A stretch of 61,922 nt of DNA, from NCBI GenBank assembly GCA_002688415.1, contig NZCX01000010.1, forward strand, positions 1-61,922, in the 5' to 3' direction. Shown in pieces: positions 6,927 through 61,498 of the stretch; the stretch's first letter is position 1, and each line of letters starts with the position of its first letter. The stretch is from Candidatus Pacearchaeota archaeon. Lineage in GTDB: Archaea; Nanobdellota; Nanobdellia; Pacearchaeales; GW2011-AR1. The notes under the pieces are model-generated. The model was not told where the DNA came from and made no database searches. It saw only the letters and a program-made list of their open reading frames with translations. Made by a program: the position numbers and the translations under genes.

Positions 6927-9389
6927 ATGAAAATTGAAAATTACGAGGAAGTGATTGAAAAAATCCTTCCACATCTACCGGAATATCTAGAAGAGCAGGA
7001 AATAGATCCTACAAAATTATTTTGCTGTATCAACCCTGCTCATGATGATAAAAACCCTTCGGCTGGAGTAGTTCCAGGTGAAGATGTGTTCCATTGCTTC
7101 TCTTGCGGAGCTTCAGGAAATATATTTCATGCTGCTCATTACCTTGAGAACAAGCCCCTAGTGGGTGTTGGGTTCATAACTGAGAACCTAGCATATCTTG
7201 CTGAGAAATTTGGCTTAGAATTAAAACAGAAGCCCCTCACAGAGGAAGAAATCTATGAACTAGATACCTATAGAGCGTATCAAAATGCTTGTGACTACTT
7301 AACCATGGGGAACAAGCCAGATTTATTTGATCAAGCCATCAGGGAACGTGATTGGTCAGAAGATATCTGCAAAGAGTATGGTGTTGGTAGTATAGGAAGC
7401 TATAGGGATTTCAGAGAGCATATGAAGGACCTTGGTTTTACAGCAAGGTTTCAAGATGACGTAGACCTAGGTAGGAAAGAGATTTTTGGACCAGATAGAC
7501 TTGTCTTTACCATCAAAGATCCAGGAGGCAGAGCGGTTGGCTTTGCTTCTAGGAATCTAGAGTACAAAGAAGACAGGTCTAATGGGGCCAAATATATAAA
7601 CCAAAAACACACTGGTGTTAAGTGTAATATCTATAGGAAGAGTACTCGACTATATGGATTGGATTGCTTACTTAAGAAACGTAAGAAAGGCAAACAATCT
7701 GTATATATATTCGAAGGTTATTCCGATGTAATTACTGCAGCTCAACATGGAGTTAAAAACACAGTAGGCCTTGGTGGTACCGCCTTCAGTCTCGATCAGT
7801 TGTTCCTATTAAAACAATACAACCTCTATGATATTATTCTCTGTTTAGATGGAGATGAGGCTGGTCAGAATCGCATCGAATCTATTCTGGATACAACTCT
7901 AGCAGGCCACAAGGATCTTAGAGTTCATATTATCATGATTCCTAACGGAAAAGATCCTGATGAATTCATTAGAGAAGAAGGTGTTGAAGAGTTTAAGAAG
8001 CTCAGAAAGTGGACAGCTTTCGAGTGGAGACTTTCTAGATTTGCAGAAGATGAAGACGAAGAAGTTATCTGTAAGAATATGATTCCTCTCATTGTAAATG
8101 AGACCTCATATATTGCACAAGAAAAAATGTGTGAAGTGTTAGCTAAAGCTACAGGCATTAGCATCAAAGCTATTCAGTCAGAACTAGAGCGTTTGCAGAA
8201 TATTAGAGCTGCAGAAAAAGCCAGAGAACGACAGAATATTACAGACAAAATGGTCAACCTCATACAGAGAGATCCCTCTCAAATAGAATTTGTACTACAG
8301 GACGCATTAAATGATTTATATAACTTGGCAAACAAATATGATGAAGATAATTTCTCCGAACAATCCTGTCTTTCACTTGTCAGAAGCAGAAGAGAATACG
8401 AAGAAACTAAGGATGGAAGCTTTAGTGGCTTTGTATTGGGTCAAGATCTAAAGCGATTAGAAAATGCCCTAGCAGGAGATTGGAAAAAAGATGTATGGTT
8501 TTGCTTGGGAGGTAATCCTAACGCAGGCAAGACTAGTTTTCTATGTAAAATGGCATATGAAATTGCGAGACATAAGAAAGAAAATGATGCCTTAGTGATC
8601 TATCACAGTATTGATGACACGGCTGAACAACTAATTCCTAAATTTGTATCAATTGCAGAGGGGAGTAGAGACCTAACTTTAAACCAAGTAATGGATCCAA
8701 ATTATTATTTACGAACTGGACATGGGGATGAGCTGTTAGAAAAGAGGGATATGGGATACAATATATTTGAATCACTCATAGATGACGGGAGGATAATTTT
8801 AAGAGATGCGAATAATGGAAATAGCTTATCGTATGCAGATGCTCAAATTAGACATTTCAGAAATAAGTATCCTAATAGGAATATTGTATACATATTAGAT
8901 AACTTTCATAAACTTCATGACTTCGGTGGTGGTGGAGATGAGCGAGTTCGATTCAAAAAGGTAAGCAACATGATGAAGAACTTGGCAACCAAACATCACA
9001 TTGCAGTGATTACCACTATTGAATATAGGAAGACACAGGGTGGACGCAAGGCCACTAACGATGATATCTCAGAGACAAAACAAATAGAGTACGATGCAAA
9101 CATTATCGCCCACCTGCACAATGAGGTGCACGAGAAGGGTGATGATGCATCAAAATTTCATACAGCTCTAGTCGATGGCGCTCCAGTTCGTATGCCAATT
9201 ATAGAATTAAGCATTGGGAAGAACAAGGTAAGTGGATTCAAAAGCAAGCTATGGTTTGAATTTTATCCAGATTATTCTGACTTTAAAAATATAGACGAGA
9301 GTATTATTCTTGCTAAAGAAGCGGAAGCTGAGGAGAATACAGGAACAAAGTATGAACGACCAGGAGAAAGGAATAGTTTATTTGGATGA
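6927..9389 (+). CDS. DNA primase-helicase fusion (DnaG-like plus DnaB-like)
   Basis: CHC2 Zn finger (CCINPAHDDKNPS..CFSC), TOPRIM (EGYSD, DGDEAG, DPDE), Walker A GNPNAGKT, IEYDAN motif. Confidence 0.9.
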   Translation: MKIENYEEVIEKILPHLPEYLEEQEIDPTKLFCCINPAHDDKNPSAGVVPGEDVFHCFSCGASGNIFHAAHYLENKPLVGVGFITENLAYLAEKFGLELKQKPLTEEEIYELDTYRAYQNACDYLTMGNKPDLFDQAIRERDWSEDICKEYGVGSIGSYRDFREHMKDLGFTARFQDDVDLGRKEIFGPDRLVFTIKDPGGRAVGFASRNLEYKEDRSNGAKYINQKHTGVKCNIYRKSTRLYGLDCLLKKRKKGKQSVYIFEGYSDVITAAQHGVKNTVGLGGTAFSLDQLFLLKQYNLYDIILCLDGDEAGQNRIESILDTTLAGHKDLRVHIIMIPNGKDPDEFIREEGVEEFKKLRKWTAFEWRLSRFAEDEDEEVICKNMIPLIVNETSYIAQEKMCEVLAKATGISIKAIQSELERLQNIRAAEKARERQNITDKMVNLIQRDPSQIEFVLQDALNDLYNLANKYDEDNFSEQSCLSLVRSRREYEETKDGSFSGFVLGQDLKRLENALAGDWKKDVWFCLGGNPNAGKTSFLCKMAYEIARHKKENDALVIYHSIDDTAEQLIPKFVSIAEGSRDLTLNQVMDPNYYLRTGHGDELLEKRDMGYNIFESLIDDGRIILRDANNGNSLSYADAQIRHFRNKYPNRNIVYILDNFHKLHDFGGGGDERVRFKKVSNMMKNLATKHHIAVITTIEYRKTQGGRKATNDDISETKQIEYDANIIAHLHNEVHEKGDDASKFHTALVDGAPVRMPIIELSIGKNKVSGFKSKLWFEFYPDYSDFKNIDESIILAKEAEAEENTGTKYERPGERNSLFG

Positions 9390-23072: not shown

Positions 23073-23257
23073 CCAGTGTCCTTTGTGTTTTCTTTTTCAC
23101 TAGAATAATCTGGAATCCCTTTTTGAATAACATACCCTGCTCCTGCAAGAAGAAATAGAGGCCACGCATGTACGATCACATATAACACACCAACTCCAAT
23201 AGCGAATCCGATTCCTAGTGAGATTAAGTTAAAGTTAAAATTATTTTCATTGCTCAT
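23069..23257 (-). CDS. Small membrane protein
   Basis: Hydrophobic core. Confidence 0.5.
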   Translation of the reverse strand: MSNENNFNFNLISLGIGFAIGVGVLYVIVHAWPLFLLAGAGYVIQKGIPDYSSEKENTKDTG

Positions 23258-26200
23258 TCTTAATATAGTCCAATTTGGTTATAAAGTTCTCTATATTATC
23301 AATTCCAAAAGAATATAAAGGATTAAATTTCGTTTGATCTTTCGTAATGAAACTGAGACATACTTCATTTGTTGAGCCTTCGTATTCCTTTACTAAACTA
23401 ATAACCTGTTCTACATAATCAATGGGACATTCAATAATTTTTTTACTTACATTACTTATTGATTCTAACTCTAAAGGTTGAATTTTTTCAATGATAAATT
23501 TGGTTATTTTTTCATTTTCTGTACTGGTAACCTCGGTAGATCCAATAAGTACAAGGGGAACACCTTCTTGTAGAAATTCTTTACATTTTGTATAGTTTCT
23601 AGGAAAACAAACAGCCTCAATGGTTCCTGTTAAATCTTCTAAAACAAAAAATGCCATTGATTTTTTAGATTTTGTTGTGATTTCTTTAATGTTTGTAATC
23701 ACCGCACCAAGATTAACTTTGATTTTATTTTCAAATTCTTTTAAAGTTTCTATACTGAAAAAGTTCTTAGCATAATTTTTTGGATCAAAATTTCCAAGTG
23801 GATGATTTGTAATGTAAAATCCTAGCAGCTCATACTCCGCTTGATACAATTCTTTTTCATTTAATTCTAAAAGAGAATCGATATCCGGGAAGCCTAGTAT
23901 TTCAGGAGCAACTGGAAGTTTGAAAGGCTTTAATGCTTTTCCAGTATCTGATTTGATATTGTTTTTAATATCTTCAAGTCTCTGGTGGTATGCTTCTACC
24001 TTTCTTGTGTAAGTTAATAGTTTTCTTTCATATGCCTTGGAGTTCTTCCTGAATTCCCAAACATCATCTATTGCTTTCAGTAAGCTGGCACGATTTTCTT
24101 GCAAGGAATCAAAGCATCCAGCCCTTACCAAGGATTCAATTTTTAATCTATTGATGACTCCAAGATCAACACGTTGACAAAAGTCAGAGAAATTAGAAAA
24201 AGATTTAGATTTTCTTTCATCCATAATGACTGCAACAGGAGTTTCTCCTAAGTTTTTAATTGGGCTTAGCCCAAAACGAATGTTTTCTTGACTATCTACA
24301 TAGAAAGAACTCTTGCTTTCATTTATATCTGGAGGTAGAACATTGATTCCCATTCGACGGCATTCTGCTAAGCACTTGATCATCTCGTCTCTGTTTCCAG
24401 ACTCAGAGATCATTACAGCACACATAAATTCTCTTGGATAGTGTGTCTTTAACCATGCAGTTTGGTATGTAATGTAAGCATAGGCTGCAGCATGAGAGTT
24501 AGAGGTAACGATACCATTATCAACTGTAAATGTATGATTAGGGGCATCCATCTCAATATCGTAAACTTCTTTTTCTCCTACAGATTCTATTGAAACAATT
24601 TTTTCAAGTCTTGTAGAGAGGCCCGCTTCTCCCATTTTTGTTCTACCCATTTGATAATGAGCTTTTTTATGACATCCAGAGCAGAGGGTTTGAAGATTAT
24701 CTAATTTGTTATTTCCATGGTCTCCATCAACATGGTGAACCTCTAGATTCATTTGAGAACTGCAAAGCTCGCAACTAGTTTTCTTTAAATTATTTTGATA
24801 ATATTTTAATTGAGTATAAGGGGTATCTCTTTTTTGAAATCCTTGTTGACCTTTTTCAGGAAGATTGTCTCCAGGAAGATTGAACCTATACATAGTGTCT
24901 TTTGATTTGGAGCCATCGTTTACATATAAGAGATCTTCTTCTATAGATATATCTTCTAGCTTCTTCTCCCCATTAGAAGTTGGAAACTTATGATTTAAAG
25001 TTGTATTTATAGTTAAACCAGATTCTGTTGTGACCTGATAGGTTTCTTTTAAACCTTGGTATCTGATATCAACTATTTTATTTTTAACTAATTTGTTATC
25101 TTTATTTAAAGACCAGGCGTATCCATAACCTTTAGAAATTAATTTATTTCTCATTGGAATTGCATCTATTGAGCGAGCAAAACCACGATCATTTTTTATC
25201 TTATAAAGTTCTGAAATTGTATAGTGCCTACCCTTACTTATTGTAGGTCTATAAAGCTTAGTGTCTCCATCTAAACACTTGTTGAATGCATAGTCACTGA
25301 AAGCAACAATGTCTTCCCAGATTTTATCTGCTTTTTCTAATTCATATCCGTTGGCTTGCCAGCCTTTTTTAAATGCTTCTTCTTGTTGTTTAAGGGTCTC
25401 GGTTTCTTTCTTTCCGATAGCTCTCCGGAGAAGATCAGCATCGGCCATACTAAAACCAGCAAGTTGCTTAACAATTTCAAGGACCTGCTCCTGATATATA
25501 ATCCATCCTGCTGTGGGCTGTAAGATGGGTTCCAATTCTGGAATTAAATATCTTGGTTCACTATTGCCTGCTCGAATATCAAGATAGGTACTCTTATAGT
25601 CAGATCCTAAAGGACCTGGACGATAGATAGCAACCAAAGCAATTAAGTCTTCAAGGCAGCTAGGTCTAATTTGTACCAAAAGGTCCCTCATGCCAGAGCT
25701 TGCCTCCAGTTGAAAGACTCCCGTAGCATTACCTTGCCTTAGGTTTTTGTAAGTTTTAGGATCTTCGAGATCAATAGAATCAATAGTAAAATCTGAAATG
25801 TTGTCATGTCGCTCCTTGATTAGGTCAACACATCTGTGGATCTTACTTAAGGCATCCAGTCCAAGGAAATCAAACTTAATCAAACCATATTGTTCGATGT
25901 TTTTCATTTCCCATTGGGTAGTAATCTCTCCGCTTCTACCTAAGAATAAAGGCACAGTGCTATGTAAGGAATCATTTGAGATAACAATTCCAGATGCATG
26001 TACCCCGGCACTGGAGATAATATCTTCAAGCTTGCAAGCCCAGCGTAATGTTTCACCTTCAGGTCCATTAGATGTACTGTACTTTTTTAATTGTTTTACC
26101 TTTTCAATGGAGGTTTCTAATTTTTGTGGCTTCCCATGTATGGGTTCCAACAACAGGCGAGAAAGCTCATCACCTACAGAATAGGGATGGCCAAGAGTTC

Positions 26201-26660
26201 TAGCAACGTTTCTTACTGCAGCCTTCGCTCTCTGTAAATTGAATGTTCCTATGTGAGCAACATGATCATCACCATACTTATCAGTTACATAATCTATAAC
26301 CTTATCTCGATATCGTTTTTCAAAATCAACATCGATATCAGGCATAGATAGTCTGGCGGGATTTAAAAAACGTTCGAAAATTAACCCGAGTTTTATAGGA
26401 TCTAAATTAGTGATACCTAGACAGTAGCAGGCTAAACTACCTGCTCCTGATCCTCGACCAGGACCAACATAAATATCATTTTGTTTTGCCCAGTTAATGA
26501 AGTCTTGGACAATTAGAAAGTAACCAGCGTAACCCATCTTGTGGATTACTGAAATCTCATAGTTTAATCTATCAATATATATTTGATCGTTTTCTAGATT
26601 TCTATTCTTTAATCCTTTAAAGCATTTAAAAGTAAAGTAACTATCAAGAGTTGCCCCCAT
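23247..26660 (-). CDS. dnaE: DNA polymerase III alpha, catalytic part lacking the PHP domain; intein-containing
   Basis: GPGRGSGAGSL, FERFLNP.R.SMPDIDVDF, HASG, KFDFLGL, GVFQLE, YQEQ, FNK|SHAAAY; SD AGGAG. Confidence 0.95.
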   Translation of the reverse strand: MGATLDSYFTFKCFKGLKNRNLENDQIYIDRLNYEISVIHKMGYAGYFLIVQDFINWAKQNDIYVGPGRGSGAGSLACYCLGITNLDPIKLGLIFERFLNPARLSMPDIDVDFEKRYRDKVIDYVTDKYGDDHVAHIGTFNLQRAKAAVRNVARTLGHPYSVGDELSRLLLEPIHGKPQKLETSIEKVKQLKKYSTSNGPEGETLRWACKLEDIISSAGVHASGIVISNDSLHSTVPLFLGRSGEITTQWEMKNIEQYGLIKFDFLGLDALSKIHRCVDLIKERHDNISDFTIDSIDLEDPKTYKNLRQGNATGVFQLEASSGMRDLLVQIRPSCLEDLIALVAIYRPGPLGSDYKSTYLDIRAGNSEPRYLIPELEPILQPTAGWIIYQEQVLEIVKQLAGFSMADADLLRRAIGKKETETLKQQEEAFKKGWQANGYELEKADKIWEDIVAFSDYAFNKCLDGDTKLYRPTISKGRHYTISELYKIKNDRGFARSIDAIPMRNKLISKGYGYAWSLNKDNKLVKNKIVDIRYQGLKETYQVTTESGLTINTTLNHKFPTSNGEKKLEDISIEEDLLYVNDGSKSKDTMYRFNLPGDNLPEKGQQGFQKRDTPYTQLKYYQNNLKKTSCELCSSQMNLEVHHVDGDHGNNKLDNLQTLCSGCHKKAHYQMGRTKMGEAGLSTRLEKIVSIESVGEKEVYDIEMDAPNHTFTVDNGIVTSNSHAAAYAYITYQTAWLKTHYPREFMCAVMISESGNRDEMIKCLAECRRMGINVLPPDINESKSSFYVDSQENIRFGLSPIKNLGETPVAVIMDERKSKSFSNFSDFCQRVDLGVINRLKIESLVRAGCFDSLQENRASLLKAIDDVWEFRKNSKAYERKLLTYTRKVEAYHQRLEDIKNNIKSDTGKALKPFKLPVAPEILGFPDIDSLLELNEKELYQAEYELLGFYITNHPLGNFDPKNYAKNFFSIETLKEFENKIKVNLGAVITNIKEITTKSKKSMAFFVLEDLTGTIEAVCFPRNYTKCKEFLQEGVPLVLIGSTEVTSTENEKITKFIIEKIQPLELESISNVSKKIIECPIDYVEQVISLVKEYEGSTNEVCLSFITKDQTKFNPLYSFGIDNIENFITKLDYIKNEQ
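24498..25277 (-). mobile_element. Intein (260 aa) with embedded HNH homing endonuclease
   Basis: Interrupts the conserved FNK-SHA motif; starts CLDGDT, block B TLNHKF, block F VYDIEM..PNHTF, ends VTSN before Ser; HNH CELC..LEVHHVDG..NN..NL.TLC..CH. Confidence 0.9.
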
Positions 26661-27123
26661 TTTCTCTCCTATGAAACTGTTCTATAAACCAAGCTCGCAT
26701 CCATTTTTTAGGCCAGGGATACAAGTAATATTTATTTAATAAATTTACAACCTTATCGATGTCTTCTTCTGTTTGAATATTGGCATGCAGATAAGCTTCT
26801 CTTTCAAATTTCCACCGAAAATAAGAGAACAAGAATGGCAAGGGACATAACAAGTATAAAAATAGATATAACGAAACTCCATATTTTTTAAATTGTTTTA
26901 CATGGATAAGTTCATGTTTAATTATTGCATAATTTTTAATAGCTAAGGGGGATCTCTCTGTGTTTGGATAGTAAATTTTATTTCCGATAGTAGTCCAGAG
27001 ATTAGTCATAAATGCTGGGTAAAATAGACTAATAAATCTCATCAGGAGGGAGTTTTGTTTATTTATAAACTCAACATCCTCACTAATAAAACCTGCAAAT
27101 CCTTTTTTAACTCGCAATCCCAT
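26644..27123 (-). CDS. HExxH zinc-metallopeptidase-like protein (DUF4157-like) between the two dnaE halves
   Basis: TTIGNKIYYP, KHELIHVKQ, FEREAY; start set at ATG 27123 by SD spacing. Confidence 0.6.
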   Translation of the reverse strand: MGLRVKKGFAGFISEDVEFINKQNSLLMRFISLFYPAFMTNLWTTIGNKIYYPNTERSPLAIKNYAIIKHELIHVKQFKKYGVSLYLFLYLLCPLPFLFSYFRWKFEREAYLHANIQTEEDIDKVVNLLNKYYLYPWPKKWMRAWFIEQFHRRENGGNS

Positions 27124-28147
27124 CCTTTGCATATCCTTTTTTCCAATTATTAAATTCTTCGCAGTCTGGTTCTTTTGTGATGTCAAAGTAAGGCATCTGA
27201 TATTCACCGAGTGTGATATTTAAATCACACATCTTTGGAACCTCCAGGGTGTTATAGAATGCTTCTTCTGATCCTATTTTTCTGGCAGCTTCCAACATTT
27301 CTTCAGGAGATCTGACGTAAACACCATCACCATATACATCAGTTTTATTACACCCATCCTCATCTCCCTCGTATTCATCAAGGGTCTTCTTAAATTGTTG
27401 AGCCATGATGAGGTTGTGTGCTCTCTTGTCTTCTCGTGTTAAGAAGTGAGCATCGGCAGTAATAACTAATGGAATGTTTTCTGTCTTTGAGGTTTTAATC
27501 GCCCAATCATTGAACTTTTTTTGAGCTGGCATGATATTGTCTTGAATCTCTAAGTACAATCTACCATTAAACATTTCGTGAAGTTTTCTAAGTCTTTTAA
27601 CTGCTAGGCTCTGATAATCATATGGTTTAAGTTTTTCTGTAACATAGGTTTGCATGGCTAAATCATATTCTTCTTGGTTTTTCCCTTTTCTTGTTGGCTT
27701 AAGAGGGAAGCCCTTCTTAGCAATAACACCACCAAGGCATGCAGTTGTGGCCACTATTCCTTCTGCTCTTGTCTCAAAATGTTTCTGCCAAATACGTGGC
27801 TTATAGTAAAAGTTATGTAAGTTAGCCTGGTTTGTCATCCATACAAGATTCTCAAATCCTTTTGCATTCATAGCAATAAGAATCATGTGGTGGTTGTCTT
27901 TAGTTTTGACTTCAGAGTCGTCAGGATCCTCTGTGATGTATGCTTCGACTCCAACTAATGGATTGATATTATACTTCTTCGCATGCTTGTAGAATTCAAT
28001 AGAGCCATGCATAACACCATGATCAGTCAGTGCACAAGAACTCATTCCTAACTCAACAATTCTTTGGCATAGCTTATCAATTTTATTTAAACCATCCAGG
28101 ATACTATACTCTGAATGAACGTGGAGATGACAAAAATCTTCGGACAT
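27107..28147 (-). CDS. dnaE: Stand-alone PHP domain of DNA polymerase III alpha (N-terminal half)
   Basis: HLHVHSEYSILDG, ALTDHG, GVEAY, YYKPRI, TTAC, LEIQ, TADAHF. Confidence 0.9.
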   Translation of the reverse strand: MSEDFCHLHVHSEYSILDGLNKIDKLCQRIVELGMSSCALTDHGVMHGSIEFYKHAKKYNINPLVGVEAYITEDPDDSEVKTKDNHHMILIAMNAKGFENLVWMTNQANLHNFYYKPRIWQKHFETRAEGIVATTACLGGVIAKKGFPLKPTRKGKNQEEYDLAMQTYVTEKLKPYDYQSLAVKRLRKLHEMFNGRLYLEIQDNIMPAQKKFNDWAIKTSKTENIPLVITADAHFLTREDKRAHNLIMAQQFKKTLDEYEGDEDGCNKTDVYGDGVYVRSPEEMLEAARKIGSEEAFYNTLEVPKMCDLNITLGEYQMPYFDITKEPDCEEFNNWKKGYAKDGIAS

Positions 28148-30834: not shown

Positions 30835-31044
30835 CTATTCGAAATTGTTTTCGAGTGAGTACAAAATATCCTCAGCGTGAGCTAATTCTTCTGCAAACTC
30901 CGCGATGGTATCCAATACATTGGGATGATCTGCTACCCCAACAGGAGCCTTCATAAATACCTGCATATTTGCTAATGCTTGTAGCTTTTTTGCTTCATAT
31001 CGTGCTCTCAATGCTTGATACATCGGGTTGTTCGATAAATCCAT
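30835..31044 (-). CDS. Hypothetical protein
   Basis: Start at ATG 31044 after SD AAGGAG; PVGVADHP motif. Confidence 0.55.
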   Translation of the reverse strand: MDLSNNPMYQALRARYEAKKLQALANMQVFMKAPVGVADHPNVLDTIAEFAEELAHAEDILYSLENNFE

Positions 31045-32062
31045 CGTTTTCTCCTTGAACAGGAACAAATGTTCCTTCCAGTATTTGTTTAATCTCTAGA
31101 TATACATCGGGATTTTCTTGCAAGTAAATAGAGGTCTTTCCTTTGCCTTGACCAATATTATCTCCTTTGTAAGAGAACCATGCCCCTGCCTTTTTGATGA
31201 TACCTTCATTAGCAGCGCAATCGATAAGGTCTGAATACCTATCAATTCCTAAGCCATATTGTATGGTAAACATTGCATCACGGAAAGGAGGGGCCACTTT
31301 GTTTTTTACTACTCTGGCCCTTGTGACATTGCCTACAAATTCAATATCTTTTCCTGTACCTTCTTTGAGTTTCTCTACTCTTCTAACATCTACGCGTTGA
31401 CTTGCATAGTATTTCAAAGACTCTCCACCCGAAGTAGTTTCAGGGCTACCGAACATGACACCAATCTTCATACGGATCTGGTTAATGAAGATGATTGTAG
31501 TTTCATTAGCATGAGATGTTGGAGCGAGCATACGCATTGCTTGGCTCATCAGTCTTGACTGCCTTCCTACGTGGTTGGCTCCTATCTCTCCATCTACTTC
31601 TGCTTTCGGAGTTAATGCGGCAACCGAATCAATAACAATCAAATCTAGAGAACCACTCTTAATAAGTTCTTGTGTAACTTGAAGTGCTGCTTCTCCGTGG
31701 TCAGGTTGAGAAAAGATCAAGGCTTCGGTATCGATTCCGATAGACTCTGCATAGACAGGATCAAAAGCGTGCTCCATATCAATAAAAGCAGCATAGCCCC
31801 CTGTTTTTTGAATTTCAGCGATTGCATGTAATGCAAGAGTCGTTTTACCACTTGATTCTGGACCATAAATTTCAACGATTCTTCCCTTTGCCCAGCCCCC
31901 ACCAAGAGCCTTGTCTAAGCTGTAACATCCTGAAGAAAGTTTTTCGATTCTAGGAATGTCATTGTCACCAAAGATAACTGAACCAACACCAATAGTGTTA
32001 TTGATATTTTTGATTGCAATCTTAAGTGCTTCTTCTTTACCTAAAGTTAATTTTTTAGCCAT
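30995..32062 (-). CDS. recA: RecA recombinase
   Basis: GRIVEIYGPESSGKTT, IVIDSVAAL, FINQIRMKIGVMFGSPETTSGG..LKYYAS, KNKVAPPF; start set at ATG 32062. Confidence 0.97.
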   Translation of the reverse strand: MAKKLTLGKEEALKIAIKNINNTIGVGSVIFGDNDIPRIEKLSSGCYSLDKALGGGWAKGRIVEIYGPESSGKTTLALHAIAEIQKTGGYAAFIDMEHAFDPVYAESIGIDTEALIFSQPDHGEAALQVTQELIKSGSLDLIVIDSVAALTPKAEVDGEIGANHVGRQSRLMSQAMRMLAPTSHANETTIIFINQIRMKIGVMFGSPETTSGGESLKYYASQRVDVRRVEKLKEGTGKDIEFVGNVTRARVVKNKVAPPFRDAMFTIQYGLGIDRYSDLIDCAANEGIIKKAGAWFSYKGDNIGQGKGKTSIYLQENPDVYLEIKQILEGTFVPVQGENDGFIEQPDVSSIESTI

Positions 32063-32402
32063 TATTTTTTCTTTCAATTTGTGAAAAACGCTCACGCATT
32101 TTTCTTCTTAACCACTCTATATCGATATCGACTAATTGTAATAAATGGGTGGGGGAAACGATTTGATTCCCCCAATTAATATAATATCTATCACTAAATA
32201 TAAAATCTCTTGCAGTTTCCCAAGTATATTGAAGCGCAGAAGTCTTGCTGTTGTAAAGTGATAGATAATCTCTTGAAGTTTGTTCAATCACTTTTAATAT
32301 AACAAGTCTACATTCTTCAGTGTTAGGAGAATAATCAGATAGATAAAATTCTATCCCTTTGTATTCATAAGTTTTATCATATCTATCTTTAAGAAGGGAC
32401 AC
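32055..32402 (-). CDS. Hypothetical protein (GTG start)
   Basis: ORF overlapping the recA start. Confidence 0.5.
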   Translation of the reverse strand: MSLLKDRYDKTYEYKGIEFYLSDYSPNTEECRLVILKVIEQTSRDYLSLYNSKTSALQYTWETARDFIFSDRYYINWGNQIVSPTHLLQLVDIDIEWLRRKMRERFSQIERKNNG

Positions 32403-36827: not shown

Positions 36828-36845
36828 TTAATTTTCCTTTTAATC

Positions 36846-37253: not shown

Positions 37254-37261
37254 CCTTTGTA

Positions 37262-39061
37262 TTAAAGATCTGAGAATCTACTATCTACTGCATCTTTAGT
37301 TGATTTTGATTCTTCTTTTTTAGTCTGTTTGAAAACACCAACATCGTCAATAGCGTCATCAATATTTAATTTTTTTCCAGAAGCTGTTTTAACTGCCTTC
37401 TTTTTATTTTGTTTTGCTTCCTGCATTGCATAAGAGCTAGCGAATCGGAAAGAACCTCTTGCTTTATCTCTAAGTTTCTTGACTTTTTCTGCCATCACCC
37501 TAGAGATTGGCTTAGTATCCGTAATCGCTCCTAAAAGATTTTTGATAGTTAAATCTTTTTTATCTTGATAAAATGAGGCTGCAATTCCATCTTTGATTGC
37601 TTTTTCAATCTCTGCTCCTGTAAATCCATCAGTAACAGAAACTAAGACCTTCTTGTGTTGTTCAAATTTGGAGATATCTCTACCTCTTTTAGATAAATGA
37701 ATCCCAAAGATATCCCAACGTTCATCTGGTCCGGGAAGATCTACAAAGAATACCTCATTAAAACGTCTGATAAACTCCGGAGGAAGCATTGTGATGTCAT
37801 TTGCAGTGGCAATGATAGTTACCCCTTCCATTCCATCTTGCATCGCTGTAAGGAGCGTTCCGAAGACCCTAGCAAGGGTACCACCATCAGAAAAGTTACT
37901 AGATTTAGTACCACTTAGAGACTTCTCAACTTCATCAATCCACAAGACACAAGGAGACATAGCCTCTGCTTGCTTGATGACATCTCTCATCTTAGATTCA
38001 GAGCCACCAACAAGTCCAGTCATGACCTTGCCGACATCCAGTCTAAGCAAAGGTACCTGCCAAAGCCGTCCGATAGCCTTAGCAAGAAGTGATTTCCCAG
38101 TTCCAGGAACTCCAGTTAATAGAACTCCTTTTAATGGTTCAACTCCAAAGGCCTTAGCTTCGGGTGTATAAGCTCTAGAATATTTTCCAAGATAGTCTTT
38201 AATCATATCAAGACCACCAACATCATCCATTGCTACTGGAGCATGAATAAATTCAAGAATCTCAGATTTTCTGAGTAACTGCTTCTTATCCATAAGCAAT
38301 TTATCAGCATCCAACTTGTTCATGTGGGTAATTGATGTTGAAATAGCATTATCAATCTCAATTAAGGTTAAGCCTTGTAATGCTTTAACAAATCCTTGGA
38401 TATCATTGATATCATAATCAAGTTTTGTATACTTTTTCTTTCCTCTAGTGCTAGTATTCATATGACTAACAACTTCAGTGATATGCTCTTCGATTACATT
38501 CTTTGTTGGAAGCTCATATCTAACGACCGAAGTTTGTTTTTCAAGTGTTGGTGGAATGCCAGCACGATTACCTCCAGCTCCATGAGCTAGTAAGGGGCTA
38601 AGGATTATCAGTGTTTTCCCTGTTCCAATCAGATGCTCATACATGTCTCTGATTTGTCTTGGAATTGGTTCACCAAGAACAGTATGAAAATCCCTCATAA
38701 TAAAACAAGTACCTTTGCTGTCACTTGTTCTATGCATCTCACAGATTCTTTTTAAAGCTTTCTGTGGATTCCAGGTTCCGTCATCTTCTCCTGAAGCACG
38801 TTCTGTAGATAATTGCTGGTCTTGTCTGATTAACCCCTGATAAGCAGACCAAAGCCAAACATCTCTTTTACATGGAGTTGCAATTGCCTCCATGAAATCA
38901 TTGATAAATCTATTCTCTTCGTGAGTTAAAACCCAGATGATAGGGGCTCTTCCCCTAATCAATGCAAGAATTTCTTCCATTGCATTCTTATAGTTAGGTT
39001 GTTTTTCCTCTATAGGAAGAACTTCTGGTTCGGAAGTTTCTGAAGTAATAATTTCTGACAT
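37262..39061 (-). CDS. Ycf46-like AAA+ ATPase
   Basis: T.EE.R, DVGG...K, KGVLLTG.PGTGKS, LRLD.G....LVG.SE, CVLWIDE.EK, ATAN....PPE..RRF.E.FFVDLP, FTGAEIE. Confidence 0.85.
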   Translation of the reverse strand: MSEIITSETSEPEVLPIEEKQPNYKNAMEEILALIRGRAPIIWVLTHEENRFINDFMEAIATPCKRDVWLWSAYQGLIRQDQQLSTERASGEDDGTWNPQKALKRICEMHRTSDSKGTCFIMRDFHTVLGEPIPRQIRDMYEHLIGTGKTLIILSPLLAHGAGGNRAGIPPTLEKQTSVVRYELPTKNVIEEHITEVVSHMNTSTRGKKKYTKLDYDINDIQGFVKALQGLTLIEIDNAISTSITHMNKLDADKLLMDKKQLLRKSEILEFIHAPVAMDDVGGLDMIKDYLGKYSRAYTPEAKAFGVEPLKGVLLTGVPGTGKSLLAKAIGRLWQVPLLRLDVGKVMTGLVGGSESKMRDVIKQAEAMSPCVLWIDEVEKSLSGTKSSNFSDGGTLARVFGTLLTAMQDGMEGVTIIATANDITMLPPEFIRRFNEVFFVDLPGPDERWDIFGIHLSKRGRDISKFEQHKKVLVSVTDGFTGAEIEKAIKDGIAASFYQDKKDLTIKNLLGAITDTKPISRVMAEKVKKLRDKARGSFRFASSYAMQEAKQNKKKAVKTASGKKLNIDDAIDDVGVFKQTKKEESKSTKDAVDSRFSDL

Positions 39062-39669: not shown

Positions 39670-40242
39670 TTATCCTTCTAAAATATCTGTAATTCTCTGT
39701 ATATTGCAATTTTTATAATTTTTTACTAAAGAAGATCCATATGGTATTTCAATTCTTCCAAAATATATACGATCTGCATAATTTGCCTGCAATGCTGTTA
39801 ATTTTCCTTCTTTGAGCATAGATATATTTTTAGTAATTAATTTTGAAATTACTTTTGGAACATATCCTATCTCTTTCCAGGTTTGATTTGTAAAGTTTTC
39901 AGGGGTCTTACTTTTATCATCGAAAACTATTCCAATTCTTACTGCATATGGATCATAAGAATTGCTAGGTTCTGGTTTTAAAATTATTTTGTGAGAATTT
40001 TCTCCTAAAGGATATCTTCTTCTCTCTGATTTTAAGGAAACCGCTTTATTGTATAAAGATTTATAATAAAGTGAACGAACAACACCCTTGCTATCTCTTT
40101 GTGTATAACCTGCAGGAATAATATAAAGTATATTGTTTTTAGTATCGTCTAGGATGCGACTTCTCCAGTAGCCATCATAATCAAAACCTACTGGACAAAT
40201 AAATCCTTGAGATAATTCTTCTAAAGGAGTATTTAATTTCAT
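39670..40242 (-). CDS. HIRAN-domain protein
   Basis: LKPEPSNSYDPYAVRI...IGYVPK. Confidence 0.7.
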   Translation of the reverse strand: MKLNTPLEELSQGFICPVGFDYDGYWRSRILDDTKNNILYIIPAGYTQRDSKGVVRSLYYKSLYNKAVSLKSERRRYPLGENSHKIILKPEPSNSYDPYAVRIGIVFDDKSKTPENFTNQTWKEIGYVPKVISKLITKNISMLKEGKLTALQANYADRIYFGRIEIPYGSSLVKNYKNCNIQRITDILEG

Positions 40243-40263: not shown

Positions 40264-40872
40264 TTATTCATCTTCTCCATCTAGAATTGCTTCTAGGTCA
40301 TCTTGAGAAATTTCTCCCTGTTCTACTAGGTTTTCTAGAATCTCTTTGGGATCCATACCAAGCAAAGCTCCCATTGTCGCAGCTGAGCCTGCCTTTGCTT
40401 TTCGTTCAATATCTTCGATTTCTTCTTCAGAAATCTCTTTTTCGAAAGTTTGAATTGTTAGATTTTTTTGTTGAACAAATTTTAATAGAAGAAATGCAAT
40501 AGACATCATATTTACTAATGCAACACGAGAAGTTTCGTTTGCTAAGAAAAATGCGGTATGTCGAATCCCTAGCATTCTTCCTAACCCACTAACAACAGAT
40601 TGCGCCATCAATGGCATGATTTGATCTACAAATTGATTTGCTTCGTCATCTGATAACTTCTTTTCGATATAGTTTAGTAATTCTTCAATTACCTCAGAAA
40701 GCTCAACTTTGTCTTCGTCTTGATCATAAAGTTCAACATGAACCGTCGTTCCTTTTACTTTGTTAATCATAACCATTTTAAAGACATCTTCTGGAGTCAT
40801 AGACTCTTCGTCTTCAAAAAGGTCTTGAATTTCATCTTCATCAAAATTGGTTTCATCAAACTGACTCATCAA
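40264..40872 (-). CDS. Acidic hypothetical protein
   Basis: ORF; SD GAGGAG. Confidence 0.6.
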   Translation of the reverse strand: MMSQFDETNFDEDEIQDLFEDEESMTPEDVFKMVMINKVKGTTVHVELYDQDEDKVELSEVIEELLNYIEKKLSDDEANQFVDQIMPLMAQSVVSGLGRMLGIRHTAFFLANETSRVALVNMMSIAFLLLKFVQQKNLTIQTFEKEISEEEIEDIERKAKAGSAATMGALLGMDPKEILENLVEQGEISQDDLEAILDGEDE

Positions 40873-40889: not shown

Positions 40890-40920
40890 ATTTTCAATTT
40901 TGCCCTATATAGGGTTTTTA
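40890..40920 (-). promoter_or_regulatory. Hairpin plus AAAATTGAAAAT element, copy 2
   Basis: + strand ATTTTCAATTTT-G-CCCTATATAGGG-TTTTT. Confidence 0.45.
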
Positions 40921-41265
40921 CGCACTGTGCCATTGGGCTTGTTTTAAGTGTAAAAAGTTTTTTTCTGTTAATTTCAATTGTGGAATAGGGTTATTAAATC
41001 CTTCAGGTCTAATACTGGAAAAATCTGCAGTTCTAATTAAAAAAACTTCACCAGATTTTATTAGGTTTTCCCAGTAACTCTTTCTATCTTTCGCAACAAA
41101 CATGTTTGCGTGGTAATAATGGATCTTATGAAAACCTTTTCCTTTATCTTTTATCGGTTCTTGGCTAACGACATCAAAACTTGCAAAAAATCCCTGATCA
41201 TTCCAAGGAACAAATTGTAATTTTGGTTCAGAAGGAATTGCGACTAAGCCATTACATTGTAACAT
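40918..41265 (-). CDS. Putative OB-fold / SSB-like protein
   Basis: GLV..EP.L....FASF.V...HYY...IKSGEVFLI pattern resembles SSB. Confidence 0.4.
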   Translation of the reverse strand: MLQCNGLVAIPSEPKLQFVPWNDQGFFASFDVVSQEPIKDKGKGFHKIHYYHANMFVAKDRKSYWENLIKSGEVFLIRTADFSSIRPEGFNNPIPQLKLTEKNFLHLKQAQWHSA

Positions 41266-41968
41266 CTTTGCTCTCGTTATATTTTAGAGAAAGTAATCTA
41301 TTCCACCAAAGTCTATTTTGTTGACTTATTTCACTATGTTCTTTTTCCCATCTGAATAAATCTGTATAGCCTTCTACTTCAACTAGGGTCTTCAATCGAA
41401 TAACTTGCATCGATTTTGTATAAATACTGTACTGTCTTGGAGAACAAGCGGTTTTTAATACTTTAAGTAATCTATAAAGATAAAGAACATCCCCTGCTGC
41501 ATATTCAAGTTGTCTGGATGACAATTTGTCTTGATCCCATTTAGAGTGATCAATTTGCTTGTTGATGTGAATATCTAAGATATTTTTTAAAGAATTGCTT
41601 AAACCAGAACTATATTGAGGAAATATAATCTTCATTAAAGTTTTGGTACAGTGAATATTTGTTCCTATTTCTGTCATTAATCCCATTTTTAAAAATGCGA
41701 GATCAAAGGCAGCATTATGAAAAATAAAGGAAATATCACTATTCTCTATTAACTGAATAAGTAATGTGCTATCTGGAGTTGGTTTCTTAACAATAAAAAC
41801 CTCTCCAGAGGTAGTTGCAATCTGTACTAAAAACAAGGAGGTTTCTCTATAATCGAGGCCTCCAGTTTCAGTATCGATTGAAAGATATTTCTCTATAGAT
41901 AAACGTTCTAGAACTTTGGATGGTAAATCAAAATCATATACTTCTAAACTTTTCAGACCTTTCATCAC
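41252..41968 (-). CDS. DEDD 3'-5' exonuclease (PolA-exo / RNase D-like)
   Basis: SIDTETGG, IFHNAAFDL, YAAGDV. Confidence 0.85.
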   Translation of the reverse strand: MMKGLKSLEVYDFDLPSKVLERLSIEKYLSIDTETGGLDYRETSLFLVQIATTSGEVFIVKKPTPDSTLLIQLIENSDISFIFHNAAFDLAFLKMGLMTEIGTNIHCTKTLMKIIFPQYSSGLSNSLKNILDIHINKQIDHSKWDQDKLSSRQLEYAAGDVLYLYRLLKVLKTACSPRQYSIYTKSMQVIRLKTLVEVEGYTDLFRWEKEHSEISQQNRLWWNRLLSLKYNESKDVTM

Positions 41969-41984: not shown

Positions 41985-42605
41985 TTAATCCATTAATGCA
42001 TTTCCCATTAAATTGATAGCTGCTGCTTTAGCGTTAACCAAATCAGAAGTACTATCCTTGGGTTTCCAGGTAAAAATTACTGATGTTTGCTCGAATGCGG
42101 TTGTTAATTTTAATATAAGATCTCTTTTCTTTGTCAAAAGAGTCGTATCGCATTTCTTTTCACTATTCATTTTTTCAATAACTTCTAAGTGATCAGAAAT
42201 GACATGAATAGGAGTATTAATATTTGCTCCAACATATAAATCCAATAAGGTTCTCAAAGACATGTAAATACCATCAAAGCAGCATTCTTCTTTATCTCTA
42301 TTTTTTAAATATCTTGCAGTAGTAATATTTTCTTGTTTTTGCCCAGGAAAGTTAATGACCATTCCAAGAGTATAAAACAATTCTTCTTCGACACGATAGC
42401 GCATAACTTTCGTGGTAATGGTAATTGGTTCTTTGTGAAGATTTTTAGATAATTCAATATCTTCTTCTTCTAAGTTTAAAGCAATTTCTTGTAAGTGTCC
42501 TAAGAACTTAGTAGTTGTTGTTAATATTGGATTTGAAGAATTCAAATACTTATCAATCATATCATTGATAGCTAATAAGCGCTTATCTGAGCCTGAAATA
42601 GACAT
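41985..42605 (-). CDS. RNase H-like fold protein, catalytically degenerate (tentative)
   Basis: LGMVI...; ECCFDGIYMSL aligned to AEYxAL; IHVISDHLEVIEKMN aligned to vxixsDSxLVvxqm. Confidence 0.4.
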   Translation of the reverse strand: MSISGSDKRLLAINDMIDKYLNSSNPILTTTTKFLGHLQEIALNLEEEDIELSKNLHKEPITITTKVMRYRVEEELFYTLGMVINFPGQKQENITTARYLKNRDKEECCFDGIYMSLRTLLDLYVGANINTPIHVISDHLEVIEKMNSEKKCDTTLLTKKRDLILKLTTAFEQTSVIFTWKPKDSTSDLVNAKAAAINLMGNALMD

Positions 42606-42608: not shown

Positions 42609-43130
42609 TCAACCCCATTTTAACATTTGGGGGACAGCTGCCTGTAGCAACTCTTTCATTACAATCAGCTCATCCCCAGATAGAGGAACTTGATGGTTTT
42701 TATTTTGTCCACCAGCAGATTGAGAAGCTCTTACCATGCATCCATTAGCTGTTCCTTTGGGGGAGGCTAAATATAGATTCTTTTTAACTAATCCTTGGGA
42801 TTCACTTTTAGCTCCTGGATCATGCATGATGCTGCATTCTTGACCAGTGTATAGTGAATGAAGGATTTTACCGACATCGGTAACTGACAAAGCAAGAACA
42901 ATCTTGTTTTCCCAATCATAGACATTTCTATCTTTTGTGCTGGTAATCTCCATAAAGATAGTTCCTTCACGGATTTTCCATCCATCTCTTAAGGATCCAT
43001 TCTCCATGGCTTCATAACCTGTGTAATCTTTGTTTTTGCCTGAATAAAAATGTGGAGGTTGTAAATTCAATTGAATTGCTCCCCATTTTCCAGCCATACC
43101 TTTGTATATAGAATATTGTAATGGTCTCAT
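42609..43130 (-). CDS. Whirly-family ssDNA-binding protein
   Basis: YSIYKG..GA, YDWENKIVLALSVTDVG, HDP...S.QG.VKK.L, VPLS..E...VP..LKW, colinear with plant Whirly. Confidence 0.75.
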   Translation of the reverse strand: MRPLQYSIYKGMAGKWGAIQLNLQPPHFYSGKNKDYTGYEAMENGSLRDGWKIREGTIFMEITSTKDRNVYDWENKIVLALSVTDVGKILHSLYTGQECSIMHDPGAKSESQGLVKKNLYLASPKGTANGCMVRASQSAGGQNKNHQVPLSGDELIVMKELLQAAVPQMLKWG

Positions 43131-43131: not shown

Positions 43132-43470
43132 TTATTCCCTTTCTTTTTTGGAAGTTTGTTGTTCGTGATCTTGAAACCAATTTGTTATCTCAATTCCTTG
43201 AAGCATAAGAGCAGCCCCTACACTAGGATTAGTATAATATTTCTGTTTTAAAGACTCAATGTCTGGTCCTTTGGTTTCTCCCTCTATAGACGCCCCAAGG
43301 GTATAGCCTAAATTACCATAGATAACAAGGATTTCTCCAACTGTGGGCTTATATTCTTGAAAAGCTATTATTAGTTTTTCTAATAATTCAGAACATTTTT
43401 CGGGATTAAATTGTAAAGTTTGTTGTGGATTCTTATCAATTACTGTCATTAGAATTCTAATTGTCCCCAT
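43132..43470 (-). CDS. Hypothetical protein
   Basis: ORF. Confidence 0.55.
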   Translation of the reverse strand: MGTIRILMTVIDKNPQQTLQFNPEKCSELLEKLIIAFQEYKPTVGEILVIYGNLGYTLGASIEGETKGPDIESLKQKYYTNPSVGAALMLQGIEITNWFQDHEQQTSKKERE

Positions 43471-46342: not shown

Positions 46343-46930
46343 TTATAAGAAATTTTTCCAATATTCATTTTGAACCTTATCGAATGGAGTTCCAATATGA
46401 GATTTCCATTCAGGAGCTACAGGTTGCTTTTTAAGCTGCCATCCGAGTGTATCCAATGTCTGACTTCCCTTCTTACCATTACAGTATTTGCAGGAAGTTA
46501 CAACGTTTTCCCACGTACTTTTTCCACCTTTACTCTTGGGATGTACGTGGTCTAATGTACGGATGTTATTTTTACATTTTGTTCCACAATATTGACATTT
46601 ATTTCCATCTCTTTTGTAGATGTTATATCTGGAATATTTGACTGTTTTAATTATTTCAATTCCAGCAGTGGTATCTATTTTGATTACTCTTGGAATATAA
46701 ATGGAAATTGATGGAGAAGAGATCTTTCCTACATATTTTGCAGCTTCAAGTGGAAGATTATCGATTAAAGAACTGTATTTTATCCATTCATTAAGATTTC
46801 GTATTGTATATGTTTCATCAATTACACTTGCTTTACCTGTATATAAAGCACAAATGGCATCCTTAGCTATTCCAACTTTAACAGCTAAAAAATACTTATT
46901 TAAAATTAATACTTCACTACATAGAGACAT
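46343..46930 (-). CDS. HNH endonuclease (McrA / HNH_5-like)
   Basis: VLILN, RDGNKCQYCG, TLDHVHPKSKGG..TWENVVTSC..CN..KG. Confidence 0.9.
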   Translation of the reverse strand: MSLCSEVLILNKYFLAVKVGIAKDAICALYTGKASVIDETYTIRNLNEWIKYSSLIDNLPLEAAKYVGKISSPSISIYIPRVIKIDTTAGIEIIKTVKYSRYNIYKRDGNKCQYCGTKCKNNIRTLDHVHPKSKGGKSTWENVVTSCKYCNGKKGSQTLDTLGWQLKKQPVAPEWKSHIGTPFDKVQNEYWKNFL

Positions 46931-61495: not shown

Positions 61496-61498
61496 CCA

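What the first reader, a model, noticed from the sequence alone, without database searches (positions are those of the whole stretch)
42609..43130. Phage protein colinear with plant organellar Whirly ssDNA-binding proteins
Seen: matches along the whole domain to plant Whirly as I recall it (SIYKGKAAL, YDWxxKQxFxLSVTExG, HDPxxGxSxxGxVRKxL, VPVTxAEF, PxxLGW). Known: Whirlies are tetrameric ssDNA binders acting in plastid and mitochondrial genome repair, with an unclear prokaryotic origin. Inference: a phage SSB or recombination accessory (the genome has RecA and a possible second SSB at 40918) that may inform Whirly origins. It could also bind msDNA.
Basis: partly seen in the sequence, partly recalled or inferred. 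Interest (0 to 1): 0.65.

Follow-up and report, generated by a model that had tools for sequence, protein, structure and literature searches.

The report
Plant-type Whirly protein in marine phage
A large uncultivated phage encodes a true relative of the plant Whirly single-stranded-DNA-binding proteins among its DNA replication and recombination genes, so this supposedly plant-specific family is widespread in uncultured phages, though no phage member has been tested.

Summary
ORF 42609-43130 (minus strand, 173 aa) matches Pfam Whirly at E 1.3e-18 (67.6 bits, cut-off 23). It hits the plant WHY1/2/3 and p24 crystal structures by sequence. Its AlphaFold model (pLDDT 91) superposes on them over the full length (TM about 0.8, rmsd 2.4 A).

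The 62-kb contig is about a third of a roughly 190-200 kb phage genome that was binned into a tiny-genome MAG; 100 relatives of that MAG have no match above Pfam's cut-off.

The gene sits in a conserved, tightly packed module:
- an unknown 112-aa partner gene, then Whirly
- an RNase H-like gene and a 3'-5' exonuclease
- a tail-less OB-fold SSB-like protein
- RecA and DnaE about 10-20 kb further on

All eight IMG/VR viral contigs with a homologue also carry RecA and DnaE. Only two carry a reverse transcriptase.

The family has 832 representatives at 50% clustering, mostly 150-200 aa. It is absent from 50,697 GenBank phage records and from PHROGs.

Most likely it is a tetrameric, sequence-nonspecific ssDNA binder that supports RecA-dependent recombination and replication. 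Binding and oligomeric state are untested. The window's clade is not the closest to plant Whirlies, and the direction of transfer is unresolved.

The parts
42609..43130 (-). Whirly-family (PF08536) protein, 173 aa, pI 9.0. It has no transit peptide and no C-terminal tail.
   Evidence: Pfam 67.6 bits, E 1.3e-18. PDB sequence hits to WHY1/2/3 and p24. AF2 pLDDT 91 with Foldseek TM about 0.8 to plant Whirlies. 82 close homologues, all pre-annotated PF08536.
43132..43470 (-). Conserved 112-aa partner of unknown fold and function (acidic, pI 5.0). Its stop codon lies 1 nt before the Whirly start.
   Evidence: It sits directly upstream of Whirly in every DnaE-type locus that has upstream sequence except L014, where a weaker homologue lies about 1.9 kb upstream. 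This includes the distant L013. No Pfam, PHROG, NCBIfam or PDB match.
41985..42605 (-). RNase H-like protein, 206 aa, starting 3 nt after the Whirly stop. The first and last catalytic Asp of RNase HI are replaced in this phage.
   Evidence: Orthologues in L002, L003, L008, L009 and L010 keep the SCDAS / AEYDA / RSDS / LAQD motifs and carry weak Pfam RNase_H/RVT_3 hits. The window copy reads TTKVM / CCFDG / ISDH / AINL.
41252..41968 (-). 3'-5' exonuclease (DnaQ / PolA-exo type), a candidate proofreader.
   Evidence: Pfam DNA_pol_A_exo1, E 2e-25. Syntenic in L002, L003 and L008.
40918..41265 (-). Tail-less OB-fold SSB-like protein, 115 aa, pI 9.1.
   Evidence: AF2 pLDDT 83. The top 50 Foldseek hits are SSB-type OB folds: mostly bacterial, mitochondrial and apicoplast SSBs, plus some trypanosome editosome OB-fold subunits (TM 0.51-0.66, E from 1.5e-4). 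No sequence-level Pfam or PDB hit. Present near Whirly in 5 of 12 loci.
30995..32095 (-). Bacterial-type RecA recombinase.
   Evidence: Pfam RecA, E 7e-110. RecA is present in 8 of 8 Whirly-bearing IMG/VR records.
23247..28147 (-). DnaE-type DNA polymerase III alpha: the core with an intein/HNH insert (23247-26660) and a separate PHP-domain ORF (27107-28147).
   Evidence: Pfam DNA_pol3_alpha 3e-88, finger, HHH_6, Intein_splicing, HNH and PHP 5e-40. DnaE is present in 8 of 8 Whirly-bearing records.
6927..9389 (+). DnaG-type primase fused to a DnaB-like helicase.
   Evidence: Pfam Zn_ribbon_DnaG, DNAG_N, Toprim_2 and DnaB_C.

Best explanation
The ORF encodes a genuine Whirly-family protein of a large (about 190-200 kb) uncultivated phage with a bacterial-type DnaE/RecA replisome.

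Shown:
- Family membership and the full Whirly fold (two four-stranded beta-sheets, each followed by a helix).
- A fixed place in a co-directional, tightly packed replication-recombination gene block.
- Strict co-occurrence with RecA and DnaE.

Inferred by analogy with StWHY2 and AtWHY1-3:
- The protein forms a homotetramer through its two helices.
- It binds ssDNA without sequence specificity on the outer beta-sheet surfaces.

Proposed role: it coats ssDNA that helicase, exonuclease and recombination reactions expose during phage DNA synthesis. It protects that DNA from spurious annealing and hands it to the phage RecA, so it acts as an SSB-like accessory of recombination-dependent replication. 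In this phage it works beside a small OB-fold SSB-like protein, the same mix of RecA, Whirly and OB-fold SSB that plant organelles use. The invariably adjacent 112-aa protein is probably a physical or functional partner.
For: Family and fold:
- Pfam, PDB and AF2/Foldseek matches.
- Residues invariant from phage to plant: G56, Y71-D72-W73, K76, H103-D104 and E154. K10, A18 and L119 are near-invariant. W172 is invariant within the phage clade.

Context:
- Gaps to the flanking genes are only 1-3 nt.
- The order ClpP, partner, Whirly, RNase H, exonuclease, (OB), acidic protein, HIRAN-like, AAA, RecA is conserved in 12 loci.
- RecA is in 8/8 and DnaE in 8/8 Whirly-bearing IMG/VR records.
- None of those records has a canonical SSB (PF00436) above cut-off, including the 91%-complete 174-kb genome.
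- In an unrelated PolA-type 195-kb contig, a Whirly homologue lies directly after a RecA-like gene.

Plant biochemistry:
- Whirlies bind ssDNA at nanomolar affinity as tetramers (PMC3245945).
- They stimulate bacterial-type RecA strand exchange better than canonical SSBs (bioRxiv 10.64898/2026.10.24.761589).
Against: - No binding, oligomerisation or expression data exist for any phage member.
- There is no acidic or SSB-type C-terminal tip that could recruit partners.
- Another Whirly-fold phage protein, ChmC, prefers RNA (PMC11077065).
- The tetramer could not be modelled here.
- Most viral records are fragments, so the absence of a canonical SSB is weak evidence.
Confidence: 0.7

Rival explanations
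1. Whirly is the phage's main replicative SSB. It replaces the OB-fold SSB at the DnaE replication fork, and recombination is secondary.
For: - Whirly is present in every locus of the lineage. The OB-fold ORF115 homologue is found in only 5 of 12 loci and not in the 91%-complete G006.
- No PF00436 SSB above cut-off in 8 viral records.
- An earlier scan note reached the same idea for another phage (a lead only).
Against: - This phage has an SSB-like OB protein three genes away.
- The Whirly lacks a C-terminal tip for docking replisome proteins.
- G006 has a weak OB-like match (15.8 bits) elsewhere.
- Complete genomes of the close clade could not be scanned.
Confidence: 0.3
2. It is an RNA-binding protein, either ChmC-like on phage mRNAs or a binder of the RNA or msDNA made by the nearby retron-type RT cassette.
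For: - Whirly-fold ChmC binds ssRNA better than ssDNA and is needed by chimalliviruses.
- Maize WHY1 and MRP1/2 bind RNA.
- A retron-type RT plus HNH lies 3-4.6 kb upstream (46343-47747).
Against: - The RT is present in only 2 of 8 Whirly-bearing viral records and absent from the 91%- and 65%-complete ones, while RecA and DnaE are in 8/8.
- Several genes (ClpP, NifS-like and small ORFs) separate the gene from the RT cassette.
- The closest structures are the ssDNA-binding plant proteins, not MRP1/2 or Pur-alpha.
- PhiPA3 ChmC has no detectable sequence similarity to known proteins, according to its authors.
Confidence: 0.08
3. It acts on the host rather than on phage DNA, either as a nucleoid-compacting or shut-off factor or as a transcription factor (like PBF-2/p24 in the plant nucleus).
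For: - Plant WHIRLY1 compacts plastid nucleoids, and p24 was first described as a transcriptional activator.
- The protein is basic (pI 9.0).
Against: - It is embedded in replication and repair genes, not early or host-takeover genes.
- It co-occurs universally with RecA and DnaE.
- No dsDNA-binding motif was found.
Confidence: 0.05
4. The gene belongs to the archaeal (DPANN) genome in whose bin the contig lies, not to a phage.
For: - The contig is part of a MAG that is 86% complete with 1.5% contamination.
- Earlier scan notes report Whirly genes in other DPANN archaea (unchecked leads).
Against: - None of 100 relatives (20 of the same genus listed) has a match above Pfam's cut-off.
- The contig carries bacterial-type RecA, DnaG-DnaB, DnaE and ClpP, a PHROG baseplate/virion protein and two tRNAs.
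- Homologous modules sit on IMG/VR viral contigs and on contigs of about 200 kb.
- The contig's GC falls to 28%, against 35-40% in the rest of the bin.
Confidence: 0.03

Closest known systems
Plant Whirly proteins (StWHY1/p24 of PBF-2, StWHY2, AtWHY1-3; Pfam PF08536; PDB 1l3a, 3n1h, 4koo, 4kop, 4koq)
   Same: - Significant sequence homology over the domain (23-28% identity).
- Same full fold (TM about 0.8).
- Shared YKG, YDWxxK, HDP, VP(L/V)xxxE and LxW motifs.
- Same company: a bacterial-type RecA plus an OB-fold SSB.
   Different: - No organelle transit peptide and no acidic/aromatic C-terminal tail.
- A 4-residue longer beta1-beta2 hairpin, so KGKAAL becomes KG-xxGKx-GA(I/V/L), without the second lysine that drives 24-mer assembly.
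- A clade-specific insertion of about 20 residues between strands 2 and 3.
- Phage-encoded, with a conserved 112-aa upstream partner gene.
ChmC of Chimalliviridae (PhiPA3 gp61; PMC11077065)
   Same: A phage-encoded Whirly-fold protein. It forms a homotetramer (SEC-MALS) and binds single-stranded nucleic acid.
   Different: - ChmC has no detectable sequence similarity to Whirly; the relation rests on the AF2 fold only (rmsd 4.7 A to MRP1).
- It prefers RNA, has a disordered C-terminal region and serves mRNA export from the phage nucleus.
- The protein here is a sequence-level PF08536 member inside a DnaE/RecA module.
Bacterial and phage OB-fold SSBs (PF00436; T4 gp32; T7 gp2.5)
   Same: The presumed job (coating ssDNA at forks and recombination intermediates) and the position among replication genes.
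   Different: An unrelated fold, and no C-terminal acidic tip. An OB-fold SSB-like protein is encoded separately at 40918-41265.
PC4-like ssDNA binders of phages and bacteria (T5 PC4-like protein 4bg7, YdbC, SP_0782; PMC7549692)
   Same: The same broad PC4/Whirly superfold, and involvement in recombination-dependent replication (T5).
   Different: Those are half-size units that dimerise (type II). They did not rank above the plant Whirly structures in the Foldseek search.

Membership tests
Whirly (Pfam PF08536) | Sequence match above the curated Pfam gathering score | tested here: met
   67.6 bits against a cut-off of 23, E 1.3e-18. A six-frame HMM search of the contig gives the same.
Whirly (Pfam PF08536) | Whirly fold: two antiparallel four-stranded beta-sheets, each followed by a helix | tested here: met
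   AF2 pLDDT 91.4 with strands 5-67 and helix 83-95, then strands 99-150 and helix 152-169. Foldseek TM 0.70-0.86, rmsd 2.2-2.6 A (one chain 4.3 A) to 1l3a, 3n1h, 4koo, 4kop and 4koq.
Whirly (Pfam PF08536) | KGKAAL motif in the first sheet (hallmark of higher-plant Whirlies) | tested here: not met
   Only YKG...GA(I/V/L) is kept, with a 4-residue insertion. The second Lys position is M/T/V/K. Green-algal and liverwort Whirlies also lack the strict motif (PMC9070903), so this does not exclude family membership.
Whirly (Pfam PF08536) | Homotetramer (whirligig) formed through the helices | not testable with these tools
   Only monomer prediction was available. Both helices and the C-terminal LxW are conserved.
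Whirly (Pfam PF08536) | High-affinity, sequence-nonspecific ssDNA binding | not testable with these tools
   Needs EMSA or fluorescence polarisation with purified protein.
Plant organellar Whirly (WHY1/2/3 sensu stricto) | N-terminal organelle targeting peptide and an acidic/aromatic C-terminal tail | tested here: not met
   The domain spans residues 5-172 of 173, with no extensions.
Replicative SSB (functional class) | C-terminal acidic tip that recruits replisome and repair proteins | tested here: not met
   The protein ends ...PQMLKWG. The window's clade has no tail.
Replicative SSB (functional class) | It is the only ssDNA-binding candidate of the replicon | tested here: not met
   An OB-fold SSB-like ORF lies at 40918-41265. 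It is missing from several relatives.
ChmC (chimallivirus nuclear RNA-binding protein) | Disordered N/G-rich C-terminal region, in a phage with a phage nucleus | tested here: not met
   There is no C-terminal extension. Chimallin and other nucleus markers were not searched for.

The most novel reading that the evidence does not exclude
Whirly proteins may not be a plant invention. They may be an old, diverse family of phage ssDNA-binding and RecA-accessory proteins. The green lineage would have taken its organellar Whirly from such a phage or prokaryotic source, as it did Twinkle and the T-odd-type RNA polymerase. In that case the RecA + Whirly + OB-SSB recombination set of plant organelles would recapitulate a phage module. 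In phages, Whirly with its conserved 112-aa partner would form a previously unrecognised two-component recombination mediator.
Probability: 0.25. Interest if true: 0.8.

Novelty: new member of a known kind. Interest (0 to 1): 0.55.

Why it matters
Reviews of the plant field call Whirlies plant-specific or unique to plants (PMC9070903, PMC6963530), and their evolutionary source is unexplained.

This finding offers a compact member with no targeting peptide, inside a defined RecA/DnaE module of a phage. It belongs to a family with hundreds of divergent non-plant representatives. That has three consequences:
- It supplies an outgroup for rooting the plant family.
- It gives a simpler system for testing what the Whirly fold does for RecA-type recombination, which is now shown biochemically for the Arabidopsis proteins.
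- It adds a non-OB type of ssDNA-binding protein to the set that phage annotation should recognise. PHROGs and GenBank phage records currently contain none.

Tried and rejected
- tblastn of three diverse family members (the window protein, P0138, P0224) against 50,697 GenBank phage records found nothing. Megablast of 10 kb around the gene also found nothing.
- PHROGs and NCBIfam have no model for Whirly, the partner or ORF115.
- The genome-contig scan with the clade profile found nothing, because only one narrow peptide pattern was used.
- Whole-record searches of the roughly 200-kb NCBI and ENA contigs were not possible because they are not held. The 'no canonical SSB' argument therefore rests on IMG/VR records, most of them fragments.
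- The gp32 (PF08804) search was negative, but its control was silent, so it is uninformative.
- Profile searches of PDB with the partner and ORF115 alignments gave nothing useful. Pfam at E<=1 on the partner family gave nothing.
- A search with P0224 alone returned only itself.
- Cappadocia et al. 2010 (the list of DNA-contact residues) is not held, so contact residues could not be mapped one by one.
- The msDNA-binding idea was considered and set aside because RT and Whirly do not co-occur.
- A host (archaeal) origin was considered and set aside.
- The closest cultured relatives of the neighbouring AAA ATPase are only about 30% identical (mycobacteriophages), so no host could be inferred.

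Full report
**Observation.** The minus-strand ORF at 42609-43130 encodes 173 aa. It matches Pfam Whirly (PF08536) at E 1.3e-18 and 67.6 bits, against a curated cut-off of 23, over model positions 27-135 of 136. phmmer against all PDB chains returns only plant Whirlies as significant hits: AtWHY2 4kop at 5e-11, p24/PBF-2 1l3a at 2.6e-10, StWhy2 3n1h at 3e-10, then AtWHY3 and AtWHY1.

An AlphaFold2 model built on 25 family members is confident (pLDDT 91.4, pTM 0.84). It has two beta-sheet-plus-helix halves. Its 16 best Foldseek hits in the PDB are all plant Whirly chains (E 4e-13 to 2.5e-10, TM 0.70-0.86, about 172 aligned columns). Pur-alpha and MRP1/2 follow at E about 1e-3.

**What the contig is.** The window is the whole of contig C9 of a 0.80-Mb, 39-contig bin. 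Earlier notes of this scan call that bin a marine Pacearchaeota MAG; I did not check this. None of 100 relatives of the bin, including 20 listed genomes of the same genus, has a Whirly match above the cut-off.

The contig carries these genes:
- a DnaG-DnaB primase-helicase
- a class II ribonucleotide reductase
- a DnaE polymerase with an intein
- a bacterial RecA, a ClpP and a NifS-like enzyme
- a 1477-aa protein matching PHROG baseplate and virion-structural families
- two tRNAs

Its GC falls from 39% to 28% along its length, against 35-40% for the rest of the bin. Homologues of the Whirly gene lie on eight IMG/VR viral contigs. CheckV completeness values for those contigs (49 kb = 26%, 76 kb = 39%) imply genomes near 190 kb. 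Other homologues lie on metagenomic contigs of 193-206 kb. I conclude that the contig is about a third of a large uncultivated phage genome that was binned with the archaeon. No cultured relative exists in the GenBank phage set.

**Anatomy around the gene.** All genes from about 48 kb down to 16 kb are on the minus strand. The gene upstream of Whirly (43132-43470, 112 aa) ends 1 nt before the Whirly ATG. The gene downstream (41985-42605) starts 3 nt after the Whirly stop. A purine-rich AAGGGA lies about 8 nt before the ATG (sequence).

BLAST and HMM comparison of 12 related loci shows a conserved order:
- ClpP, then small ORFs
- the 112-aa partner, then Whirly
- the RNase H-like gene and the 3'-5' exonuclease
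- the OB-like ORF (present in only some loci)
- an acidic 202-aa protein and a HIRAN-like protein
- a 200-aa protein and an AAA ATPase (phrog_8638)
- DUF1257, DUF2997 and DUF5659
- RecA

The partner is directly upstream of Whirly in every DnaE-type locus that has upstream sequence, except L014. That includes L013, whose Whirly is only 34% identical. In L014 a weaker homologue lies about 1.9 kb upstream. The partner has no match in Pfam, PHROGs, NCBIfam or PDB.

**The second ssDNA-binding candidate.** The 115-aa ORF at 40918-41265 has no sequence-level family hit. Its AF2 model (pLDDT 83) finds SSB-type OB folds throughout its top 50 Foldseek hits: mostly bacterial, mitochondrial and apicoplast SSBs, with some trypanosome editosome OB-fold subunits (TM 0.51-0.66, E from 1.5e-4). 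It lacks any C-terminal tail. Homologues sit near Whirly in 5 of 12 loci and are absent from the 91%-complete 174-kb record G006. Whirly remains the more universal component.

**Co-occurrence tests.** I searched the eight Whirly-bearing IMG/VR records for four families:

| Family searched | Records with a hit |
|---|---|
| RecA | 8 of 8 |
| DnaE | 8 of 8 |
| Canonical SSB (PF00436) above cut-off | 0 of 8 (one 15.8-bit hit in G006) |
| Reverse transcriptase | 2 of 8 (none in the 91%- and 65%-complete records) |

The gene therefore travels with the RecA/DnaE machinery. It does not travel with the retron-type RT plus HNH cassette at 46343-47747 of the window. In a separate lineage, a 195-kb contig labelled Acinetobacter sp. 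has a PolA-type polymerase, an RNA ligase and a methylase. There a 159-aa Whirly homologue lies immediately after a RecA-like gene.

**Family size and position.**
- A profile of the clade finds 832 representatives at 50% clustering with E<=1e-3 (340 at 1e-10, 81 at 1e-30). Nearly all are 150-200 aa, so they have no room for a transit peptide.
- Longer, eukaryote-type sequences first appear around E 1e-18. A family profile also retrieves Marchantia MpWHIRLY.
- In a quick maximum-likelihood tree of 147 sequences, the window falls in a well-supported clade (SH-aLRT 96) of 18 rows that includes five viral-contig proteins.
- The seven eukaryote-type rows form one separate group (SH-aLRT 83), next to short non-plant sequences. 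Among these is the Acinetobacter-labelled one.
- The sample is biased towards the query and the tree is unrooted, so the direction of transfer is open.

Residues invariant from phage to plant are G56, Y71, D72, W73, K76, H103, D104 and E154.

Three features are specific to the window's clade:
- a 4-residue longer beta1-beta2 hairpin that interrupts KGKAAL
- an insertion of about 20 residues (PHFYSGKNKDYTG...DGW)

**Mechanism.** Family, fold, gene context and co-occurrence are shown. The rest is inferred from the plant proteins: a tetramer held by the helices, with ssDNA bound on the sheet edges through hydrophobic and polar contacts (PMC3245945, PMC7549692). A 2026 preprint reports that Arabidopsis Whirlies stimulate strand exchange by the bacterial-type organellar RecAs more than the canonical mtSSBs do. 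The phage carries the same trio of bacterial-type RecA, Whirly and OB-fold SSB-like protein.

My best reading (0.7) is an SSB-like ssDNA-coating protein that supports RecA-dependent recombination and replication.
- A narrower rival (0.3) is that it is the main fork SSB.
- RNA or msDNA binding (0.08), a host-directed role (0.05) and a host-gene origin (0.03) are less likely.

**Novelty.** Plant reviews call Whirlies plant-specific. The phage literature I could search knows only fold-level relatives: ChmC and the T5 PC4-like protein. Pfam-based pipelines already tag these metagenomic proteins, and one JGI record of this clade is auto-named 'Whirly transcription factor'. Earlier notes of this scan report other phage, archaeal and bacterial Whirlies (leads only). 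I file this as a new member of a known family in an undescribed setting. It is of moderate interest because it makes the origin and core function of Whirlies testable.

**Limits.**
- No multimer modelling and no list of DNA-contact residues were available.
- There was no access to the complete genomes of about 200 kb.

Noticed in passing
window 40918-41265 (-): A 115-aa basic ORF with no family hit is predicted to be a tail-less SSB-type OB fold. It is present beside Whirly in only some related phages.
   Followed up: yes
window 43132-43470 (-): A 112-aa acidic protein with conserved YGNLGYxLGASI and ALMLQG..T.W motifs is always encoded just upstream of Whirly. No family or structure match was found. 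A marginal HMM hit (E 0.005) also lies directly upstream of the compact Whirly in L020.
   Followed up: partly
window 41985-42605 (-): The RNase H-like gene next to Whirly has lost the first and last catalytic Asp of RNase HI (SCDAS to TTKVM, LAQD to AINL). Orthologues in L002, L003, L008, L009 and L010 keep them, and L015 is also degenerate. It is probably an inactivated RNase H kept for binding.
   Followed up: partly
window 46343-47747 (-): A retron St85-type reverse transcriptase (E 9e-46, below the NCBIfam cut-off) overlaps an HNH nuclease gene. The pair is conserved in L002, L003, L011 and L012. Earlier scan notes treat it as a phage retron-like cassette.
   Followed up: partly
window 23247-28147 (-): The DnaE polymerase carries an intein with an HNH endonuclease. 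Its PHP domain is a separate ORF (27107-28147), with an extra 187-aa ORF (26644-27207) between the two. This may be a split or a second intein.
   Followed up: no
window 40264-40872 (-): A very acidic 202-aa protein (pI 4.1, Asp/Glu-rich at both ends) is conserved in all related loci between the exonuclease/OB genes and the HIRAN-like gene. Function unknown.
   Followed up: no
window 39670-40242 (-): A 190-aa protein has a sub-threshold HIRAN domain match (23.1 bits against a cut-off of 24.7). HIRAN binds 3' ssDNA ends, which would fit a fork-remodelling role.
   Followed up: no
window 36349-39061 (-): An AAA ATPase (phrog_8638) is followed by small ORFs that correspond to DUF1257, DUF2997 and DUF5659 in L003. 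The set is conserved throughout the lineage. The closest cultured homologues of the ATPase are mycobacteriophage AAA-ATPases, at about 30% identity.
   Followed up: no
whole window; G000: The phage contig sits in a bin of a tiny-genome organism (a Pacearchaeota MAG, according to earlier notes). Relatives of the bin lack the Whirly gene, and GC falls from 39% to 28% along the contig. This is probably a binning artefact, but an archaeal host was not formally excluded.
   Followed up: partly
L018 6611-8480: A 195-kb contig labelled Acinetobacter sp. has a PolA-type (UDG-exo-PolA with intein) phage-like module. In it a 159-aa Whirly homologue lies directly after a 452-aa RecA-like gene. This Whirly branch groups nearer the eukaryotic Whirlies.
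   Followed up: partly
P0147, P0213, P0224 (family members): Some non-plant Whirly family members carry C-terminal extensions: coiled-coil-like tails in P0147 and P0213, and an acidic tail ending ...ADDKIL in P0224. The window's clade lacks such tails.
   Followed up: no
window 61419-61584 (-): Two adjacent phage-borne tRNA genes: Arg(TCT) and Leu(TAA).
   Followed up: no
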